A stretch of 27,778 nucleotides of DNA, taken from a virus (lineage: Duplodnaviria; Heunggongvirae; Uroviricota; Caudoviricetes). Below, piece by piece: positions 19,176 through 27,778 of the stretch; the first letter of the stretch is position 1; each line of letters begins with the position of its first letter. The stretch spans positions 1 through 27,778 of IMG/VR virus record IMGVR_UViG_2802429234_000007; one strand, 5' to 3'. A program made the translations under genes and the position numbers. Under the pieces are notes generated by a model that worked only from the letters and a program-made list of their open reading frames with translations, did no database searches and had not been told where the DNA came from.

Positions 19176-20233
19176 GTAAAAAGAAACGCTTTGTTAAGCG
19201 CGACCAGCGTGGCGACAAATCAAAAAAGATGAGCATTATCACATTCGGCAAGCCTGAACCGGTTCTGACTACCGGCACAGATTACCGTGATATCTGGTAC
19301 GACAATGCAGCCGATCACTTCACCCAGCCGATAGACCGGCTGGCACTCGCGCAACTGATTAATCTTAACGGTCAGCACGGCGGCATCATTCACGCCCGTA
19401 AAAACATGATTGTTTCAGACTACCAGGGGGGCGGGCTTATTCATGACCAGCTGGAAGCGGCAGCGTTTGACTATATAACCTTTGGGGATATTGCGATTGC
19501 AAAAATTCGTAACGGCTGGGGCGACGTGATCGCACTTGAACCCTTGCCCGGTCTGTATATTCGCCGCCGCAAAGTCAGAGATAACGCGCTGGATAAGCCC
19601 GGTGACTACGTAGTGTTACAGGAAGGGGAACCGCAGGTATGGCCAGAAGAAGATATTATCTTCATCAAAATGTATGACCCGCAACAGCATATCTACGGAC
19701 TGCCGGACTACATCGGCGGTGTGCATTCCGCGTTACTTAACAGTGAAGCGGTCATTTTCCGACGCCGCTATTACCACAACGGTGCGCACACAGGCGGTAT
19801 TCTTTATACCCGTGATCCCAGCATGACGGACGAAATGGAGGAAGAAATTGAACAGCAGCTGCGTGACAGCAAAGGGATCGGTAACTTCTCCACCATCCTT
19901 GTAAACATTCCCGGTGGAGACGGCGACGCCATCAAATTCATTGAAATGGGGGATATTTCCGCGAAGGATGAATTTGCCAACATCAAAAACATCAGCGCCC
20001 AGGACATTCTGAACGCGCACCGTTTCCCTGCTGGCCTCGCCGGTATTGTCCCGCAGAACACTGCCGGACTGGGGGATGTTGAAAAGGCTGAACGCATTTA
20101 CAAGAAAAGCGAAATTGCCCCCATCCAGCGCCGCTTCATGCTGGCCGTTAACAACGATCCCGAAATCCCGGAAAGGCTACACCTTAACTTTGATTTAAGT
20201 TACACAGAATCAACGGATAAGGGTGCGGCATGA
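19172..20233 (+). CDS. Q: Portal protein, P2 gpQ-like
   Basis: 353 aa; ATGA overlap with terminase stop; size and P-Q synteny as in P2. Confidence 0.75.
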   Translation: MSKKKRFVKRDQRGDKSKKMSIITFGKPEPVLTTGTDYRDIWYDNAADHFTQPIDRLALAQLINLNGQHGGIIHARKNMIVSDYQGGGLIHDQLEAAAFDYITFGDIAIAKIRNGWGDVIALEPLPGLYIRRRKVRDNALDKPGDYVVLQEGEPQVWPEEDIIFIKMYDPQQHIYGLPDYIGGVHSALLNSEAVIFRRRYYHNGAHTGGILYTRDPSMTDEMEEEIEQQLRDSKGIGNFSTILVNIPGGDGDAIKFIEMGDISAKDEFANIKNISAQDILNAHRFPAGLAGIVPQNTAGLGDVEKAERIYKKSEIAPIQRRFMLAVNNDPEIPERLHLNFDLSYTESTDKGAA

Positions 20234-20283
20234 GGCGAAACAGGCTAAAATCCAGGCATCATTTAACAGCTGGAGCATGGAAT

Positions 20284-20553
20284 ATGCGAGTTCTGAAAAT
20301 CGAATGCCCGGAATGCGGCTCAAAGGCTGTTATTCGTAAAACGAACAGGAAGCACCGGCAGATTGCGGATATTTACTGCGCCTGTTCAGATGTTGAGTGT
20401 GGCCACACGTTTGTTATGAATCTGACGTTCTCCCACACTCTCAGCCCCAGCGTTAAAACGGGTGATGCGATGGTGCAAAAAATACTGAATGCACTTTCAC
20501 CCGATCAGCGCCAGATGGCATTAGACCTACTGAAAGCGACTCCCGCCGCCTGA
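20284..20553 (+). CDS. ogr: Ogr/Delta-family zinc-finger late transcription activator
   Basis: CPEC-x20-CACSDVEC four-cysteine motif near the N-terminus; GGAG RBS before ATG at 20284; alternative upstream ATG at 20230 overlaps the portal stop. Confidence 0.7.
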   Translation: MRVLKIECPECGSKAVIRKTNRKHRQIADIYCACSDVECGHTFVMNLTFSHTLSPSVKTGDAMVQKILNALSPDQRQMALDLLKATPAA

Positions 20554-20860: not shown

Positions 20861-22951
20861 CTACAACCACCCCGGCCACAGTTCCTGTAATGGCTCGTTT
20901 TGAGTCTCTTTAAGCCACCCGTTGCGGTAAATCAGTGCGCCCTGACCAAATCTCAAACCACTACCCCGCAGGAGAATGGCTATTTCTTCATCAGAACCAT
21001 CAAAACCCCGACTGCGTAATTCCAGTTTTAACCGTCTGCGGGTTCCCCCCTCCGTACAGTTATTGACAGAACTCCAAGGGGCGGCGTTGCCGCCAGAAAA
21101 ACCCGCCTCCGCTGGCGCTTCGGCCAACTTCGCAACCTTTTGCCACTTAACCAGACGGGTGCAGACTTCTGAATCAGGAACCAAAGGAGAATAAACACCC
21201 TGTACGCGCTGCACGTCCTCTGCGTATTCGTTTCCCTGTTCCGTAATTTCATAGGCCAGACGAACAACCAGATCACGGCGGGCAACCAGTGCACCGCCCT
21301 GCGCCTGGGTGTATGCAGCCCAGTCTCCGACATCAGCAGCAGCCAGAACCGCGTCCATTCTGCGATCGGTCAGCACCTGATCCCGCAACCGACGCAGCTC
21401 ACGCCACACGGTAACCGGCGCACCTCCAATCTGCTGAAACTGACGAATGCGCCAGCGTGAAGCCCACGCAGAAACTGATTTAGCCATATCACGCAGGTTC
21501 TCGCCGGTTTCTTCGTCCTGCTCACCATCCAGCGCAAAACCATCAATATTTTTTGAAATGTATTTCGCGATGTAGCCCGTGGCCGAACCTTTGGTGGGAT
21601 CGATAGCTTCAACGTGAAAACGCGCCTTAAGCGCCTTTTCAGATTGCAGTTCCTCAGAATCGGTAATTCTGGCGTGATAACAAAGAATATCGCGCACTGT
21701 GTCTACGTCCTGCGGGCGCATAAAAAGCAACATATGCCAGTGTGGTGTCCCGTCATGGTGAGGCTCAACAACCCGAAACCCAAATACATGAATACCCGCA
21801 CGCGAGATCGCTGCGCGGGCTTTTGCCCATACGCCGCATAAATAGCGCTGGGTATCCTGCGGCGTACATCCATCCCATTGCGATACAAAGCCCCCTTTGC
21901 TGTGTACCGCATGGAAACGTGATGGCGCGGTGATGGTGTAAAACTCACCGGCCAGCCCTTCTTCATTGGCCATATCTTCAAACCCCCGCATTCTTACCAT
22001 TAGCTCACAGCGACGGATCGCCGGATTTGCAACGCTGTGGTGCACCATGCTGTCCAGTGCAATGCGCAACCCCTCATCATTCAGCAGATCAAACTTTTTA
22101 AAGAACTCCAGATTCCGCTTTTTCTGGTCTATCCATTCGCCCAGGGTTTTACGGGATACATAAGCGCTGGCCGCTTTCTGCACCTGTCCCACAGCTATGG
22201 CCATATGTTCGCGCTGCGTGTCACGCGCTCGCTTCAGGCGCAGATACCACCATTCTGGCGCCATCATGCGCAGTATCCCGGATTCCGCCTTACGTGTTTC
22301 CAGTTGCCCGCCATTGGCTTCATGTTCTGCCCAGTATGGCGGCTGATTGTTCAGCATCACGGAACACGTGCATAAATGGCGGTAAGACTCCAGCGTACGG
22401 CGGCGCATCTCTGCGGCATCGTCAGTGCTGCCCACAAACTGATCGGTGAATTCATAAAGTGACTGAGAGAGCCAGCCAGATATCTGGCCAGCCAGTTTTT
22501 TGATGTCCGGGCGGTCAAGTGACGGTAGTCGCTCCAGCGACTTACCGAAAGGAAGATCAAGTGCATCAGCGGCCAGTTTGTAACGTGCAGCCACTTTGCG
22601 CAGACGTGGCAATACATTCTCACCGATAGTTTTACGCAGGAATGTATTGGCACGGCGACGCCCGTCACAACCAGCCAGCAGCTTTTCGTAACGGTTGCCG
22701 AAATACCCGGCTAACCAGTCGGGTATCTCATGCAGGTACTGGGAACGCCACTCATAATCCTGTGGGTTAACAGCCCACAGGCGACGTTCTGTGATCGTCG
22801 CATCTGACGGGGTGCTAGGCGCAAAGGTTTCACGCCGCCAGGCATTGACGGCATGGTGTTGGCCAGGCTCCAGCATATCAACCACGGTTACCTTCCGGCA
22901 GGTGGGAAAGCAGCTGTGGCATAAGGCGGGCATTGCTGCCCACCCACTCAA
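20861..22951 (-). CDS. A: Replication initiation protein (P2/186 gene A-like rolling-circle endonuclease)
   Basis: ~690 aa; HUH motif PHWHMLLF and tyrosine motif GYIAKYISKN; exact start uncertain (several in-frame Met). Confidence 0.85.
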   Translation of the reverse strand: MSGWAAMPALCHSCFPTCRKVTVVDMLEPGQHHAVNAWRRETFAPSTPSDATITERRLWAVNPQDYEWRSQYLHEIPDWLAGYFGNRYEKLLAGCDGRRRANTFLRKTIGENVLPRLRKVAARYKLAADALDLPFGKSLERLPSLDRPDIKKLAGQISGWLSQSLYEFTDQFVGSTDDAAEMRRRTLESYRHLCTCSVMLNNQPPYWAEHEANGGQLETRKAESGILRMMAPEWWYLRLKRARDTQREHMAIAVGQVQKAASAYVSRKTLGEWIDQKKRNLEFFKKFDLLNDEGLRIALDSMVHHSVANPAIRRCELMVRMRGFEDMANEEGLAGEFYTITAPSRFHAVHSKGGFVSQWDGCTPQDTQRYLCGVWAKARAAISRAGIHVFGFRVVEPHHDGTPHWHMLLFMRPQDVDTVRDILCYHARITDSEELQSEKALKARFHVEAIDPTKGSATGYIAKYISKNIDGFALDGEQDEETGENLRDMAKSVSAWASRWRIRQFQQIGGAPVTVWRELRRLRDQVLTDRRMDAVLAAADVGDWAAYTQAQGGALVARRDLVVRLAYEITEQGNEYAEDVQRVQGVYSPLVPDSEVCTRLVKWQKVAKLAEAPAEAGFSGGNAAPWSSVNNCTEGGTRRRLKLELRSRGFDGSDEEIAILLRGSGLRFGQGALIYRNGWLKETQNEPLQELWPGWL

Positions 22952-22960
22952 GTGGGGTTT

Positions 22961-23194
22961 TTACTGCCATGCGGCACCGCCTTTGCTGCAAATCGCTGTG
23001 GCTTCTTCGCGGATTAACTCAACGATTTCCGTTGCGCTTAAACCTTCCTTGGCTGCATGGGTGGCCAGCTTATCCAGGCGGGTGGAACACAGATCAGCAG
23101 CTGCGGCTTTACCTTCCTGCGTGGCTTTGGTGAGCATGGCCAGCAGTTCAGTGCCTGATTTTGTTACTGGTAAATTCTGACGTGTCATGTGCAT
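22961..23194 (-). CDS. Hypothetical early protein (77 aa)
   Basis: ORF in early operon just upstream of gene A. Confidence 0.4.
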   Translation of the reverse strand: MHMTRQNLPVTKSGTELLAMLTKATQEGKAAAADLCSTRLDKLATHAAKEGLSATEIVELIREEATAICSKGGAAWQ

Positions 23195-23211: not shown

Positions 23212-23242
23212 AAAAAAATCCCCGGCCACTTAAAACGTGGCC
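23212..23242 (-). terminator. Hairpin plus U-tract (possible attenuator) inside the early operon
   Basis: Minus strand GGCCAC-N7-GTGGCC then GGGGA TTTTTTT, between orf133 and orf77. Confidence 0.35.
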
Positions 23243-23261
23243 AAAAAATTCAGGCGGTTAA

Positions 23262-23663
23262 TTAGTGAAAAGCGGGTTGTACTGTGGCGGCTGAGTAGTT
23301 CGGTGCCGGAATAAGGTGAAGCTCATACGTTGTCCGCCACCACTCCTGGATCAGCGATTTTATCTCACCAACCCCCAGCGCCCCAGCTGTGTAGAAAATC
23401 GCGCGAATCCCCGATAGTGCCTCGATCCGTGCCTCTTTGCTCTCCGCTTCGCGATACACGCAGCACCAGAAAGCGGCGTTAATAGCCAGCCAGTGGCGCG
23501 GGTTAGTCATATGTTCTGTGTCATTGAAGAAAAACGGATGCAAAGCGATACGGCCATTTTTACTGGTGCTTTTCTCTGCAAACGCCACAGCGTAGCTATG
23601 CGGGACTCCCCACACGGCCAGTTCAGCCCCCAGCGACTTACCCTCAACGGAAATAATGGTCAT
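23262..23663 (-). CDS. Hypothetical early protein (133 aa)
   Basis: ORF with start overlapping upstream stop; no family recognised. Confidence 0.45.
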   Translation of the reverse strand: MTIISVEGKSLGAELAVWGVPHSYAVAFAEKSTSKNGRIALHPFFFNDTEHMTNPRHWLAINAAFWCCVYREAESKEARIEALSGIRAIFYTAGALGVGEIKSLIQEWWRTTYELHLIPAPNYSAATVQPAFH

Positions 23664-24091
23664 TAGTGATTCCCCTGCTGCTGCAACTTATGGATGATAT
23701 GAGGCGCGATCACCATCTGCACCCCACTACTGCTATAAATTGGATGTACCTTTTTGATCGGGCGGTTCGCGGTGCGCTTCGAAAAATCGCTGTCACGTAA
23801 ACTGCCGAAACCTTCAAACGTTAAACGCGCCCGTGAAATGCCCTGGCGCAGTTGAATCATGCCCCGATAGCCCAGGCGTTCATAAAGCTCACGCCAGCAA
23901 CACTTGCTTAAGTGAGCTTTAAACCCCCCGGCACCAGAAGTAACCGCAGCAGCATGAAGAACCACTCCGCGCCACTCCGGTGTCAGGTTGTCCCACCATT
24001 CAGCAGCCTCACTGCTTTCGCTGAAGTATTTGCGGCGGATCTGCTTTAAATGCTCCAGTCCACGCTTTTGCTGCTCCTGGTTAATCGCCAT
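23663..24091 (-). CDS. Hypothetical early protein (~142 aa from MAINQEQQ)
   Basis: Internal ATG at 24091 preceded by GGGGG; the longer 207-aa reading requires a GTG start overlapping cII. Confidence 0.4.
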   Translation of the reverse strand: MAINQEQQKRGLEHLKQIRRKYFSESSEAAEWWDNLTPEWRGVVLHAAAVTSGAGGFKAHLSKCCWRELYERLGYRGMIQLRQGISRARLTFEGFGSLRDSDFSKRTANRPIKKVHPIYSSSGVQMVIAPHIIHKLQQQGNH

Positions 24092-24099
24092 AGCACCCC

Positions 24100-24273
24100 C
24101 TATAACCCCATCAGACGACGCCACCACGGGCGGTGCGGTTGATGGCCATTGAATTTGTGCATGTGGCCAGGGTTCCAGCGCTGACCGTTCGGCAGTTCTA
24201 TCCATCCCGTTGAACCACTCGGCAACTGCATGGGTGGCGATTCTTTTTTCAGATAAGTAACAAACGCTTTCAT
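24100..24273 (-). CDS. Small early ORF (57 aa, MKAFVTYLKKESPP...), below the ORF-track threshold
   Basis: ATG at 24273 preceded by GAGGGAG with 4-nt spacer; lies between cII stop and next gene. Confidence 0.45.
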   Translation of the reverse strand: MKAFVTYLKKESPPMQLPSGSTGWIELPNGQRWNPGHMHKFNGHQPHRPWWRRLMGL

Positions 24274-24282
24274 GGTGCTCCC

Positions 24283-24786
24283 TCACATCAAGCCGGTGGC
24301 GTTAGCCGTCACCAGATCCACCGCTGCAGCAAGAACGGGCGCGGATTGGATACGGCTTTCAACGGTATAAGCCAACACGGATAAGCTACGGATTGCATCG
24401 CGAGCGCGATCCAGAATTTGTGTACGGCGGGCGGCGGTCATATGACCAGTTGATACGGCTTCCCCAGCAATTGCGCCCACACTGGCTGTGGCACTCAGTG
24501 CGCACAGCTGCATGTTGCCTTCTGTGGCATTGTTCACCGGTACGGATGGAAGGCAGTTAATCTGCCCCAGCATCCCATCAAGTAAACGCGCATCTTCGGT
24601 GTAATCCGTAATAGCTAAAAGCTCGTCACAGGTTAAACGGTGCGGCTGTGCCGGGTTCAATTTGTTGCGCAGGATCTGCGGCCTCATACCAACAGCAGCG
24701 GCCACATCTTCCAGATTGTGCTCAATTGCAAATGCTCGGCAAGCCGCATCAAAGTGCGCATGTTTGGAAGTCTGATAATCAAACAT
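24283..24786 (-). CDS. cII: CII-like transcriptional activator of lysogeny (phage 186 CII-type)
   Basis: 167 aa beginning MFDYQTSKHAHFDAACRAF, closely resembling recalled 186 CII N-terminus; position after apl. Confidence 0.75.
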   Translation of the reverse strand: MFDYQTSKHAHFDAACRAFAIEHNLEDVAAAVGMRPQILRNKLNPAQPHRLTCDELLAITDYTEDARLLDGMLGQINCLPSVPVNNATEGNMQLCALSATASVGAIAGEAVSTGHMTAARRTQILDRARDAIRSLSVLAYTVESRIQSAPVLAAAVDLVTANATGLM

Positions 24787-24829: not shown

Positions 24830-25018
24830 TTACTTTTCACTGTTCCACGCAAGCCAATCTACAAACACATGTTCTTTCGGTTTGCTTTTAGGTTTGATTT
24901 TGAGTTTGCCGGTGTGTACCCAGTAACGTCCCGTGCGCAGTTTTATTTCAACCCTGTCGCAAAAAGTTTTCAGAGGTACCCACCTGCTTTCTGAATGTGT
25001 TGCAGCTTTAGTTTGCAT
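24830..25018 (-). CDS. apl: Apl/Cox-like excisionase-repressor (small HTH protein)
   Basis: 62 aa basic protein, first gene of the operon divergent from cI; GGAGG RBS upstream. Confidence 0.55.
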   Translation of the reverse strand: MQTKAATHSESRWVPLKTFCDRVEIKLRTGRYWVHTGKLKIKPKSKPKEHVFVDWLAWNSEK

Positions 25019-25065: not shown

Positions 25066-25169
25066 TAGTTGTTAATAATCTACAAACGGCAATTATCAGT
25101 ATCTACATTCGAAACAATGCAGAGACTATTTTTAAAATTGTCGTTTGTCAATAATTGCGAACTACAAAC

Positions 25170-25745
25170 ATGACAACTTACAACATCAAGACAGGTGCAC
25201 GCGAAGCAATCGAAAGGGTGTGTGAGGCCTATGGTTTTACATCCAGAATGCAGTTAGCAAATTATCTTGGAATGTCTCCAAGTGCTTTAAGTACACGTAT
25301 CATGCGTGACAACTTTCCTGCTGATTTAGTGCTACTTTGTGCTCTAGAAACAGGAGCTTCTATCTACTGGCTAACCACTGGTGATGGCGTTAGATTTAAT
25401 CAGGTGGCAAGTGATACCACTCGAATCTCAGCCTATAAAATCGAAGGGTCTGATATGGTTCGCCAAGCATCCGTAATTTTCGATAAGACAATACTCCCCA
25501 ACTACAAAGGTGAACTTCAAATAATCAGTGATAGTTCAGTAAGATTTTTCGTAGATATCGCTGATTACCCTGTTACGGACGGTAAGTTCCTTCTTGAGTA
25601 TTCTGGTACGAAAAGCATCAAAGAATTGACGTTACTTCCTGGTAACAAATTGCGGATTGACTGGGGAAAATATCCAGTTGATTGCGACGTATCTGATGTG
25701 CAATTGATTGGGAAGGTTGTGGCCACATACTTAGTGAGTGAGTAA
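25170..25745 (+). CDS. cI: Immunity repressor, phage 186 CI-type (N-terminal HTH, ~191 aa)
   Basis: ERVCEAYGFTSRMQLANYLGMSPSALSTR...CALETGASIYWLTTGDG resembles 186 CI; upstream of int with 1-nt overlap; the ORF-track start at 25155 is TTG, ATG at 25170 preferred. Confidence 0.7.
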   Translation: MTTYNIKTGAREAIERVCEAYGFTSRMQLANYLGMSPSALSTRIMRDNFPADLVLLCALETGASIYWLTTGDGVRFNQVASDTTRISAYKIEGSDMVRQASVIFDKTILPNYKGELQIISDSSVRFFVDIADYPVTDGKFLLEYSGTKSIKELTLLPGNKLRIDWGKYPVDCDVSDVQLIGKVVATYLVSE

Positions 25746-26764: not shown

Positions 26765-27778
26765 ATGAACCTTACAATCAATCAATGCATCGTTTTATTT
26801 AACATTTTATTTGTGGTTGTTTACATGGGTTATTTATTCAAGATAAATGCATTCAAGATGAATGCTGAACCTCTTACGCATCAACCATTATTCAAAGCCG
26901 CACTGGCAATTCCAATAATTAGTTTTTTTCTGCTCGGATTTGTTGCATGGAATGGTCACAATGTTCAAATCGATACGGAAGGATTTAATAATTTCCTAAA
27001 CATTAGTAAACTTCCTTTAGCTGTTTTATCTTTATCGATTCCACTGGGAGTAGTTGTCAATAATATTCATCGAACAATACAAACAGATAAACAAATCAAA
27101 GAAGCAGAAAAGAAAAACAAAGTGGATTTTTTCTATACCCATAGAAAAAACACTATAGAAGCATTACAACACCTTGAATCTTTAGACATTCCTTTGATAA
27201 AAAAGAACGCAAAATTAGAATTTGAAAATTGTTATTCTACATATCGTAAATGCTATCCTTATGCTTCAACTACTAATAATAATTTTGATGCTTCCAAGGA
27301 CTACATACAAAATGCAGAATTAATTTGGTGCCAACTAGTTGAACTATTTAAAAAAGAAGAAATTAATGACTATACAGAGTTATACACCCATATACATAGC
27401 ATTGAAAAACTATTAGAATTATTGCACAACCTTTATGGACTAAAGCGTTTAGATATTGAAAAACTCTATCAGTGCTCAACCCACGGTGAAGATGAATATA
27501 TTTTATTCTTAAAAACAAAATTTTCGGATGAATTGGATATAAAAAAATATCTACAATCATACTGGCACTTTCATTTAAAAATGGTTGAGATACTTGAATA
27601 TAATTTCACCACTGACTTTGTGCTACTTATGAAGGATATAATAAGTTATTCAATCAATAATCGTGATAGAAAATACCCCTTATTTCAATATCACACTACA
27701 ATTGACGCAAGCGTTCCTCAGTTCATTAAGTTAAAAATCAGCAAAAGAGATCCACAAAATGTCCATGCAGAGTGTTAG
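26765..27778 (+). CDS. AT-rich membrane-anchored protein of unknown function (337 aa), candidate lysogenic-conversion or defence cargo
   Basis: Complete ORF starting 6 nt after the int stop; three N-terminal hydrophobic helices then a ~235-aa Lys/Glu-rich helical domain; much lower GC than the rest of the phage. Confidence 0.6.
   Translation: MNLTINQCIVLFNILFVVVYMGYLFKINAFKMNAEPLTHQPLFKAALAIPIISFFLLGFVAWNGHNVQIDTEGFNNFLNISKLPLAVLSLSIPLGVVVNNIHRTIQTDKQIKEAEKKNKVDFFYTHRKNTIEALQHLESLDIPLIKKNAKLEFENCYSTYRKCYPYASTTNNNFDASKDYIQNAELIWCQLVELFKKEEINDYTELYTHIHSIEKLLELLHNLYGLKRLDIEKLYQCSTHGEDEYILFLKTKFSDELDIKKYLQSYWHFHLKMVEILEYNFTTDFVLLMKDIISYSINNRDRKYPLFQYHTTIDASVPQFIKLKISKRDPQNVHAEC

What the first reader, a model, noticed from the sequence alone, without database searches (positions are those of the whole stretch)
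24100..24273. Unlisted 57-codon early ORF with a strong RBS between cII and the next gene
ATG at 24273 is preceded by GAGGGAG and opens a 57-aa ORF (MKAFVTYLKKESPPMQLPSGSTGWIELPNGQRWNPGHMHKFNGHQPHRPWWRRLMGL) that falls below the ORF-track cutoff. It occupies the slot where 186 carries small early genes (fil, dhr). The overlapping 207-aa track ORF needs a GTG start and may be over-extended.
Basis: seen in the sequence. Interest (0 to 1): 0.45.

Follow-up and report, generated by a model that had tools for sequence, protein, structure and literature searches.

The report
Known phage fil gene after cII
The 57-codon reading frame is a real, conserved gene, the counterpart of the small "Fil" cell-division inhibitor of coliphage 186, and it is already routinely annotated in related prophages, so the finding is correct but ordinary.

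Summary
An ATG at 24273 (minus strand), preceded by GAGGGAG, opens a 57-aa ORF ending at 24100, directly after cII in the early lytic operon of a P2/186-like prophage.

- **Family:** The protein matches Pfam PF10893 (Phage_186_Fil, formerly DUF2724) above its curated cut-off. RefSeq names its orthologues "phage filamentation protein Fil family protein". The exact sequence is already called as a gene on 14 public contigs.
- **Reading frame:** Across 18 loci from several enterobacterial genera, substitutions fall at third positions of the small frame (pN/pS 0.15). In the frame of the 207-aa ORF, pN/pS is 2.6.
- **The long ORF:** The frame of the downstream gene stays open back past the fil ATG only in the window and 2 of 17 relatives. 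It is therefore over-extended. The real downstream gene starts at the conserved ATG at 24091 and is 142 aa.
- **Function:** Inhibition of host cell division is inferred from homology to 186 Fil. The only evidence seen for that activity is a GenBank note on 186 fil ("overexpression blocks cell division"). The molecular target is unknown.

Verdict: already known, a good annotation catch, low interest.

The parts
24100..24273 (-). fil homologue, 57 aa (ATG 24273-24271, TAG 24102-24100)
   Evidence: ORF list. Pfam PF10893 Phage_186_Fil, E 2.4e-9, 37.1 bits against cut-off 25. phrog_7623 E 2e-28 and phrog_816 'cell division inhibitor' E 4.5e-7. Purifying selection in this frame. The exact protein is called as a gene on 14 public contigs.
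24278..24284 (-). Shine-Dalgarno GAGGGAG for fil, 4 nt before the ATG, overlapping the cII stop TGA (24283-24285)
   Evidence: Read from the sequence. A purine-rich SD (GAGGGA, AAGGAG or GAGGTG) is kept at this position in all 17 relatives and in phage 186.
24283..24786 (-). cII (167 aa), the gene upstream of fil
   Evidence: Pfam PF06892 Phage_CP76, E 9e-47. phrog_101 CII-like transcriptional activator.
24830..25018 (-). apl/cox-like excisionase-repressor, first gene of the early lytic operon
   Evidence: phrog_575 Cox-like excisionase and repressor, E 3.6e-14. Same order as apl-cII-fil in phage 186.
23663..24091 (-). True downstream gene, 142 aa, starting at the conserved ATG 24091 (MAINQEQQ...). 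Its G-rich SD (AGGGGG, 24096-24101) includes two bases of the fil stop codon.
   Evidence: phrog_33841 aligns only to residues 76-204 of the 207-aa ORF. Annotated as 142 aa in all relatives. The conserved MAI(S/N)QEQQ start is present in 17 loci.
24092..24286 (-). Spurious N-terminal extension (65 codons, GTG start) of the 207-aa track ORF
   Evidence: pN/pS is 2.6 in this frame. The extension is open past the fil ATG only in the window and 2 of 17 relatives. The downstream gene sits in frame 0, 1 or 2 relative to fil in different relatives.
23262..23663 (-). Second conserved early gene of unknown function, 133 aa. With the 142-aa gene it fills the place where 186 has dhr.
   Evidence: phrog_3935 E 4.8e-51. 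No similarity to 186 Dhr.
23219..23247 (-). Terminator-like hairpin followed by a T-run, in the position of tR1 of phage 186 (before the DUF2732 gene)
   Evidence: Consensus scan. The 186 annotation places tR1 between dhr and the DUF2732 gene. This is a pattern match only. The total count of terminator-like sites in the region is no higher than in shuffled sequence.

Best explanation
Window 24100..24273 (minus strand) is the fil gene of a P2/186-like (Peduoviridae, Quadragintavirus-like) prophage. It is the third gene of the early lytic operon (apl/cox-like, cII, fil, then two unknown genes), which in 186 is transcribed from pR. Its ribosome-binding site overlaps the cII stop codon and its ATG lies 9 nt after that stop, so ribosomes finishing cII can probably re-initiate on fil. 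The SD of the next gene in turn takes in two bases of the fil stop codon. The product is a 57-aa protein with a strongly conserved N-terminal 41 residues (MKAFVTYLKKESP.MQL.SGSTGWIELPNGQRWNPGH..KFN) and a variable, basic, Trp/Arg-rich tail. By homology to 186 Fil, it most likely delays host cell division transiently after infection or induction. It probably does so by binding a divisome component. What is shown here: the gene is real, it is under purifying selection, it belongs to the Fil family, it occupies the same operon position as in 186, and the 207-aa ORF is an artefact. What is inferred: translational coupling, the division-inhibitor activity of this particular member, and any target.
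For: - Pfam PF10893 match above the gathering score, and PHROG matches including 'cell division inhibitor'.
- BLASTP to 186 Fil gives 39% identity over 33 aa, E 3e-6. Intermediate family members bridge the two sequences.
- PGAP calls the orthologue 'phage filamentation protein Fil family protein' in all 25 listed of the 32 matching E. coli genomes.
- All 70 protein clusters recovered carry PF10893.
- The ORF is intact, with a conserved SD, in 17 relatives from Escherichia, Raoultella, Buttiauxella, Enterobacter, Erwinia, Kluyvera and Siccibacter.
- pN/pS is 0.15 in the Fil frame, against 1.4 and 2.6 in the other two frames.
- The long frame is broken in 15 of 17 relatives.
- In 186, a fil::lacZ translational fusion serves as a working reporter of pR, so the 186 fil start is translated from the pR transcript (PMC7708051).
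Against: - The division-inhibition phenotype rests on a GenBank note for 186 Fil. I found no primary paper in the held library.
- The window protein shares only about 30-39% identity with 186 Fil, and only over the N-terminal core. The Pfam match covers profile positions 1-36 of 56, so the C-terminal part differs.
- No NCBIfam model matches.
- The AlphaFold2 model is poor (pLDDT 59.7, pTM 0.22), so there is no structural support for any mechanism.
- The SD-to-ATG spacing of 4 nt is on the short side.
Confidence: 0.88

Rival explanations
1. The 57-aa ORF is a chance open frame. The real gene is the 207-aa GTG-start ORF, whose GTG overlaps the cII stop (GTGA), a typical coupling arrangement.
For: The 207-aa frame is open in the window and in its two closest relatives, L001 and L014. 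The GTGA overlap with the cII stop is visible in the sequence.
Against: pN/pS is 2.6 in that frame against 0.15 in the Fil frame. The extension is interrupted by stops in 15 of 17 relatives, and the downstream gene changes frame relative to fil (0, 1 or 2) among relatives. The PHROG profile for the downstream gene starts near residue 73 of the 207-aa ORF. All annotations start it at the internal ATG.
Confidence: 0.02
2. The gene is a real Fil-family member, but the family's main role is not division inhibition. It could instead be an anti-defence factor, a modulator of the lysis-lysogeny switch, or a protector of CII against FtsH or RseP in the manner of lambda CIII. Filamentation on overexpression would then be a side effect.
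For: The only functional statement found is an overexpression phenotype. The gene is tightly linked to cII and probably translationally coupled to it in every relative. 186 CII is degraded by FtsH and RseP (PMC7708051, abstract). No target of Fil is documented in the literature I could search.
Against: The 186 literature states that 186 has no CIII-like factor (PMC7708051). The Pfam scan at E <= 0.01 returned only PF10893, so no other family, including lambda CIII or any anti-defence family present in Pfam-A, was matched. The fil ORF itself was not scanned against PADLOC. Nothing in the sequence points to a specific alternative.
Confidence: 0.08
3. Both frames are translated in this particular phage: Fil, plus an N-terminally extended isoform of the downstream protein.
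For: In the window the long frame is open and has a GTG overlapping the cII stop.
Against: There is no constraint in that frame. The GTG has no SD of its own upstream other than cII coding sequence. The extension is absent from most relatives.
Confidence: 0.02

Closest known systems
Fil of coliphage 186 (NP_052282, 75 aa; Pfam PF10893 Phage_186_Fil, formerly DUF2724)
   Same: Same Pfam family. Same position directly after cII in the early lytic operon, which 186 transcribes from pR, with the SD at the cII stop. Shared core SP..(G)..GWI...G.RW.P. Similar small size.
   Different: Only about 30-39% identity, confined to the N-terminal 35-40 residues. The window protein is 18 aa shorter and has an unrelated basic, Trp-rich tail. 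In 186 fil is followed by dhr. Here it is followed by two unrelated genes of 142 and 133 aa.
'Phage filamentation protein Fil family protein' of E. coli, Citrobacter, Enterobacter, Klebsiella and Salmonella prophages, and the DUF2724 proteins of Escherichia phages ESSI2_ev015, ev129 and ev040 (Quadragintavirus)
   Same: 84-93% identical orthologues in the same gene neighbourhood. The identical 57-aa sequence is present on 14 public contigs.
   Different: Essentially nothing. Relatives come in 57-, 64- and 75-aa versions that differ only in the C-terminal tail.
Other small phage or prophage division inhibitors (lambda Kil, Rac KilR, Qin DicB, T7 Gp0.4). This comparison is by function only, from general knowledge and PMC3961180 for Kil.
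   Same: Small early-expressed proteins of temperate or lytic coliphages that cause filamentation when expressed.
   Different: No detectable sequence relationship: the Pfam scan returned only PF10893. For those proteins the target (FtsZ, or MinC for DicB) is known. For Fil it is not.

Membership tests
Pfam PF10893 Phage_186_Fil (DUF2724) | Whole-protein HMM score above the curated gathering score (25 bits) | tested here: met
   37.1 bits, E 2.4e-9, residues 1-39 on profile positions 1-36 of 56. All 70 homologue clusters carry PF10893.
Pfam PF10893 Phage_186_Fil (DUF2724) | Direct sequence similarity to the founding member, 186 Fil, with a shared core motif | tested here: met
   BLASTP gives 39% identity over 33 aa, E 3e-6. 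G23, W24 and G30 are invariant and P35 is nearly invariant across distant members including 186 Fil. Intermediates such as P0084, P0086 and P0091 bridge the two.
Pfam PF10893 Phage_186_Fil (DUF2724) | Small protein (about 55-75 aa) encoded directly downstream of cII in the early lytic operon of a P2/186-like phage | tested here: met
   The window order is cox/apl-like, cII, fil. The order in 186 is the same, as it is in all annotated relatives.
Pfam PF10893 Phage_186_Fil (DUF2724) | Reading frame under purifying selection (a real coding gene) | tested here: met
   pN/pS 0.15. Variable columns at codon positions 1, 2 and 3 number 19, 12 and 38 of 41.
Pfam PF10893 Phage_186_Fil (DUF2724) | Expression blocks host cell division (filamentation) | not testable with these tools
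   Known only as a note on the 186 GenBank record. It needs an expression experiment for this member.
186 Dhr (host replication inhibitor), considered for the genes that follow fil | Sequence similarity to 186 Dhr (66 aa) | tested here: not met
   BLASTP E 5.3 and 12 for the 142-aa and 133-aa products.
Lambda CIII, lambda Kil, DicB (other small early phage effectors) | Match to the corresponding Pfam family | tested here: not met
   The Pfam-A scan at E <= 0.01 returned only PF10893 for the 57-aa protein.

The most novel reading that the evidence does not exclude
The molecular target of the Fil family has not been described in any source I could search. The tight, apparently coupled cII-fil arrangement, conserved across genera, leaves one possibility open. 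Fil might act on the same membrane proteases (FtsH, RseP) that degrade 186-type CII, or on another host factor that links the lysis-lysogeny decision to the cell cycle. Filamentation would then be a secondary read-out. In that reading the variable C-terminal tail (57, 64 or 75 aa versions) would tune host specificity.
Probability: 0.05. Interest if true: 0.45.

Novelty: already known. Interest (0 to 1): 0.08.

Why it matters
It matters mainly as an annotation correction. ORF tracks with a length cut-off miss this 57-aa gene and replace it with a 65-codon spurious extension of the next gene. At least one published phage record, Cronobacter phage ESSI-2, also leaves the homologue unannotated. 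Biologically it adds one more member to a small family confined to Enterobacterales. A profile search of 1.84 billion representative proteins found only 30 clusters. The family's mechanism is still uncharacterised, so Fil would be a reasonable target for a study of small-protein division inhibitors. This window adds nothing new to that question.

Tried and rejected
- **NCBIfam scan:** no model matches the 57-aa protein or the two downstream products.
- **Structure prediction:** an AlphaFold2 run with a 29-sequence alignment gave a poor model (pLDDT 59.7, pTM 0.22) with only a short beta-hairpin around GWIELPNGQRW. I did not run fold searches, because a model of this quality gives meaningless matches.
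- **Literature:** The only relevant items were fil::lacZ used as a pR reporter and the statement that 186 has no CIII-like factor (PMC7708051).
- **dhr homologue:** I looked for one after fil and found none.
- **Long ORF as the real gene, or dual coding:** considered and rejected on codon-position and frame-conservation evidence.
- **My own frame count:** the simple count of stops in frame +2 was misleading, because indels change the relative frame of the downstream gene in different relatives. I redid it in each locus's own downstream frame.
- **PADLOC scan:** no hits for the neighbouring unknown genes.

Full report
**1. The observation**

The sequence and the mechanical ORF list confirm a minus-strand ORF at 24100..24273. 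It has an ATG at 24273-24271, a TAG at 24102-24100, and exactly the quoted 57-aa product.

GAGGGAG lies at 24284-24278 on the minus strand, 4 nt before the ATG. It overlaps the TGA stop of the upstream 167-aa ORF (24283..24786). That upstream ORF is a 186-type CII (Pfam PF06892, E 9e-47).

The 207-aa ORF (23663..24286) starts at a GTG that overlaps the same stop codon (GTGA). It covers the whole small ORF in another frame.

An ORF of 57 codons is not remarkable here in itself. One search lists dozens of similar or longer ORFs in plainly non-coding frames. The case has to rest on homology and conservation.

**2. What it is**

- **Family match:** The 57-aa protein matches Pfam PF10893, 'Bacteriophage 186, Fil', at 37.1 bits against a gathering score of 25 (E 2.4e-9). 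It also matches phrog_7623 (E 2e-28) and phrog_816 'cell division inhibitor' (E 4.5e-7).
- **Direct comparison with 186 Fil:** BLASTP against the fil product of phage 186 (NC_001317) gives 39% identity over 33 residues, E 3e-6. More distant family members bridge the two sequences, and G23, W24 and G30 are invariant with P35 nearly so.
- **Gene order:** The 186 annotation gives cI, pR/pL, apl, cII, fil, dhr, tR1, then a DUF2732 gene. The window has CI (25155..25745, +), a Cox/Apl-like gene (24830..25018, -), cII, the 57-aa ORF, two unknown genes of 142 and 133 aa, a terminator-like hairpin (23219..23247), a DUF2732 gene (22961..23194) and replication gene A. So the small ORF is the positional and sequence counterpart of fil.

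**3. It is already annotated elsewhere**

- Megablast finds the region at 86-93% identity in 32 complete E. coli genomes. In all 25 listed, PGAP calls the orthologue 'phage filamentation protein Fil family protein'. In the five loci I inspected, the next gene is called as 429 nt, 142 aa.
- The three Quadragintavirus phages ESSI2_ev015, ev129 and ev040 carry it as 'DUF2724 domain-containing protein'.
- The large protein collection returns 70 clusters, all with PF10893. They come from Citrobacter, Enterobacter, Klebsiella, Salmonella, Lelliottia and E. coli.
- The exact 57-aa sequence is encoded on 14 public contigs. Gene callers call it there as a 57-aa gene, followed by a 142-aa gene.
- A profile search of 1.84 billion representative proteins finds only 30 clusters at E <= 1e-3. 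The family is therefore small and confined to these prophages.

**4. Small frame against long frame**

I collected 17 related loci: 10 from species-representative genomes of Raoultella, Buttiauxella, Enterobacter, Erwinia, Kluyvera and Siccibacter, 5 from E. coli chromosomes and 2 from phages.

- **Integrity:** The small ORF is intact in all of them, at 57-75 aa, with a purine-rich SD at the cII stop.
- **Codon positions:** Over the gap-free first 41 codons, variable columns number 19, 12 and 38 of 41 at codon positions 1, 2 and 3 of the Fil frame.
- **Selection:** Nei-Gojobori pN/pS is 0.15 in the Fil frame. It is 1.40 in the +1 frame and 2.59 in the frame of the 207-aa ORF.
- **Openness of the long frame:** I walked upstream from the conserved downstream start (MAI[S/N]QEQQ...) in each locus's own frame. 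The frame stays open past the fil ATG only in the window and its two nearest relatives, L001 and L014. In the other 15 it is closed after 3-68 codons.
- **Relative frame:** The downstream gene lies in frame 0, 1 or 2 relative to fil in different relatives.

Constraint supports only the small ORF. The 207-aa ORF is an over-extension, and the real gene is 23663..24091. The PHROG profile for that gene also starts at about residue 73 of the long ORF.

**5. Anatomy and likely mechanism**

The N-terminal 41 residues are nearly invariant among close relatives (MKAFVTYLKKESP.MQL.SGSTGWIELPNGQRWNPGH..KFN). The C-terminal tail is variable, basic and Trp/Arg-rich, and comes in 57-, 64- and 75-aa versions.

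In the window the fil ATG lies 9 nt after the cII stop, and the fil SD overlaps that stop. The SD of the next gene (AGGGGG) takes in two bases of the fil stop, and its ATG lies 8 nt after that stop. In the longer versions, fil overlaps the next start by 11 nt. This layout suggests sequential translational coupling along the early transcript. That is an inference.

In 186 itself, a fil::lacZ translational fusion is used as a working reporter of pR activity. The 186 fil start is therefore translated from the pR transcript (PMC7708051).

The only functional statement I could find is the 186 GenBank note 'overexpression blocks cell division'. By homology, the most likely role is transient inhibition of host division during early lytic development. 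That would resemble lambda Kil functionally, though not in sequence (PMC3961180, listed). The target is unknown.

The AlphaFold2 model was too poor to use (pLDDT 59.7), so I ran no fold search.

**6. Alternatives**

- **Long ORF as the real gene, or dual coding:** the frame evidence effectively excludes both.
- **A different primary function for Fil:** a CIII-like protector of CII, for example, cannot be excluded by computation. It has no positive support, however, and the 186 literature states that 186 has no CIII-like factor.

**7. Verdict**

The feature is an ordinary, already-named gene, so novelty is 'already known' and interest is low. The practical value is the corrected gene model: fil at 24100..24273, and the downstream gene starting at 24091 rather than 24286.

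Noticed in passing
window 26765..27778 (+): A 337-aa ORF starts 7 nt after the integrase stop. It is very AT-rich (GC 28-32%, against about 54% in the phage early region) and has no Pfam or PADLOC match. It is present on the ~30.3-kb contigs and the 133-kb scaffold that carry the identical fil gene. It therefore appears to travel with the phage as cargo, possibly a moron or defence gene, rather than being host DNA.
   Followed up: partly
window 23663..24091 (-) and 23262..23663 (-): Two conserved early genes of 142 and 133 aa (phrog_33841, phrog_3935, unknown function) occupy the place where 186 has dhr. They show no similarity to Dhr and have no Pfam, NCBIfam or PADLOC hit. The 142-aa family keeps a 'SEAA(E/D)WWDKLTPEW' motif across genera.
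   Followed up: partly
window 23219..23247 (-): A terminator-like hairpin (11 pairs) with a T-run lies between the 133-aa gene and the DUF2732 gene. This is the same relative position as tR1 of phage 186, which is anti-terminated during early lytic development. I did not check its conservation in relatives.
   Followed up: no
L003-L012, L014-L019 (fil 3' ends); window 24092..24110: Fil comes in 57-, 64-, 69/72- and 75-aa versions that differ only in the C-terminal tail. Small indels at the fil/next-gene junction put the downstream gene in frame 0, 1 or 2 relative to fil. They switch between an 8-9 nt gap and an 11-nt overlap (ATGGCCATTAG).
   Followed up: yes
Cronobacter phage ESSI-2, HQ110083.1 / NC_047854.1, 25157..25327: A Fil homologue (59.6% identity over the full 57 aa) has no annotated feature in either record. 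The same small gene is therefore missed in a published phage annotation.
   Followed up: no
window 20861..22951 (-): The 696-aa TTG-start ORF for replication protein A (PF05840) is probably also over-extended by 6 codons. Gene callers on the contigs with the identical fil gene give 690 aa, which corresponds to the ATG at about 22933.
   Followed up: no
window 20230..20553 (+): A 107-aa ORF with an Ogr/Delta-like zinc finger (PF04606, E 9e-20) overlaps the stop of the preceding 353-aa ORF by 4 nt. It faces the 3' end of gene A across a ~300-bp gap. This placement of the late-gene activator differs from the ogr position next to attP in P2, a point I take from general knowledge.
   Followed up: no
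L016 and L017 (E. coli relatives), downstream of CI: In two E. coli relatives the gene after CI is not an integrase. It is a 'P-loop NTPase fold protein' or an 'AAA family ATPase'. This suggests variable cargo or remodelling at that end of the prophage.
   Followed up: no
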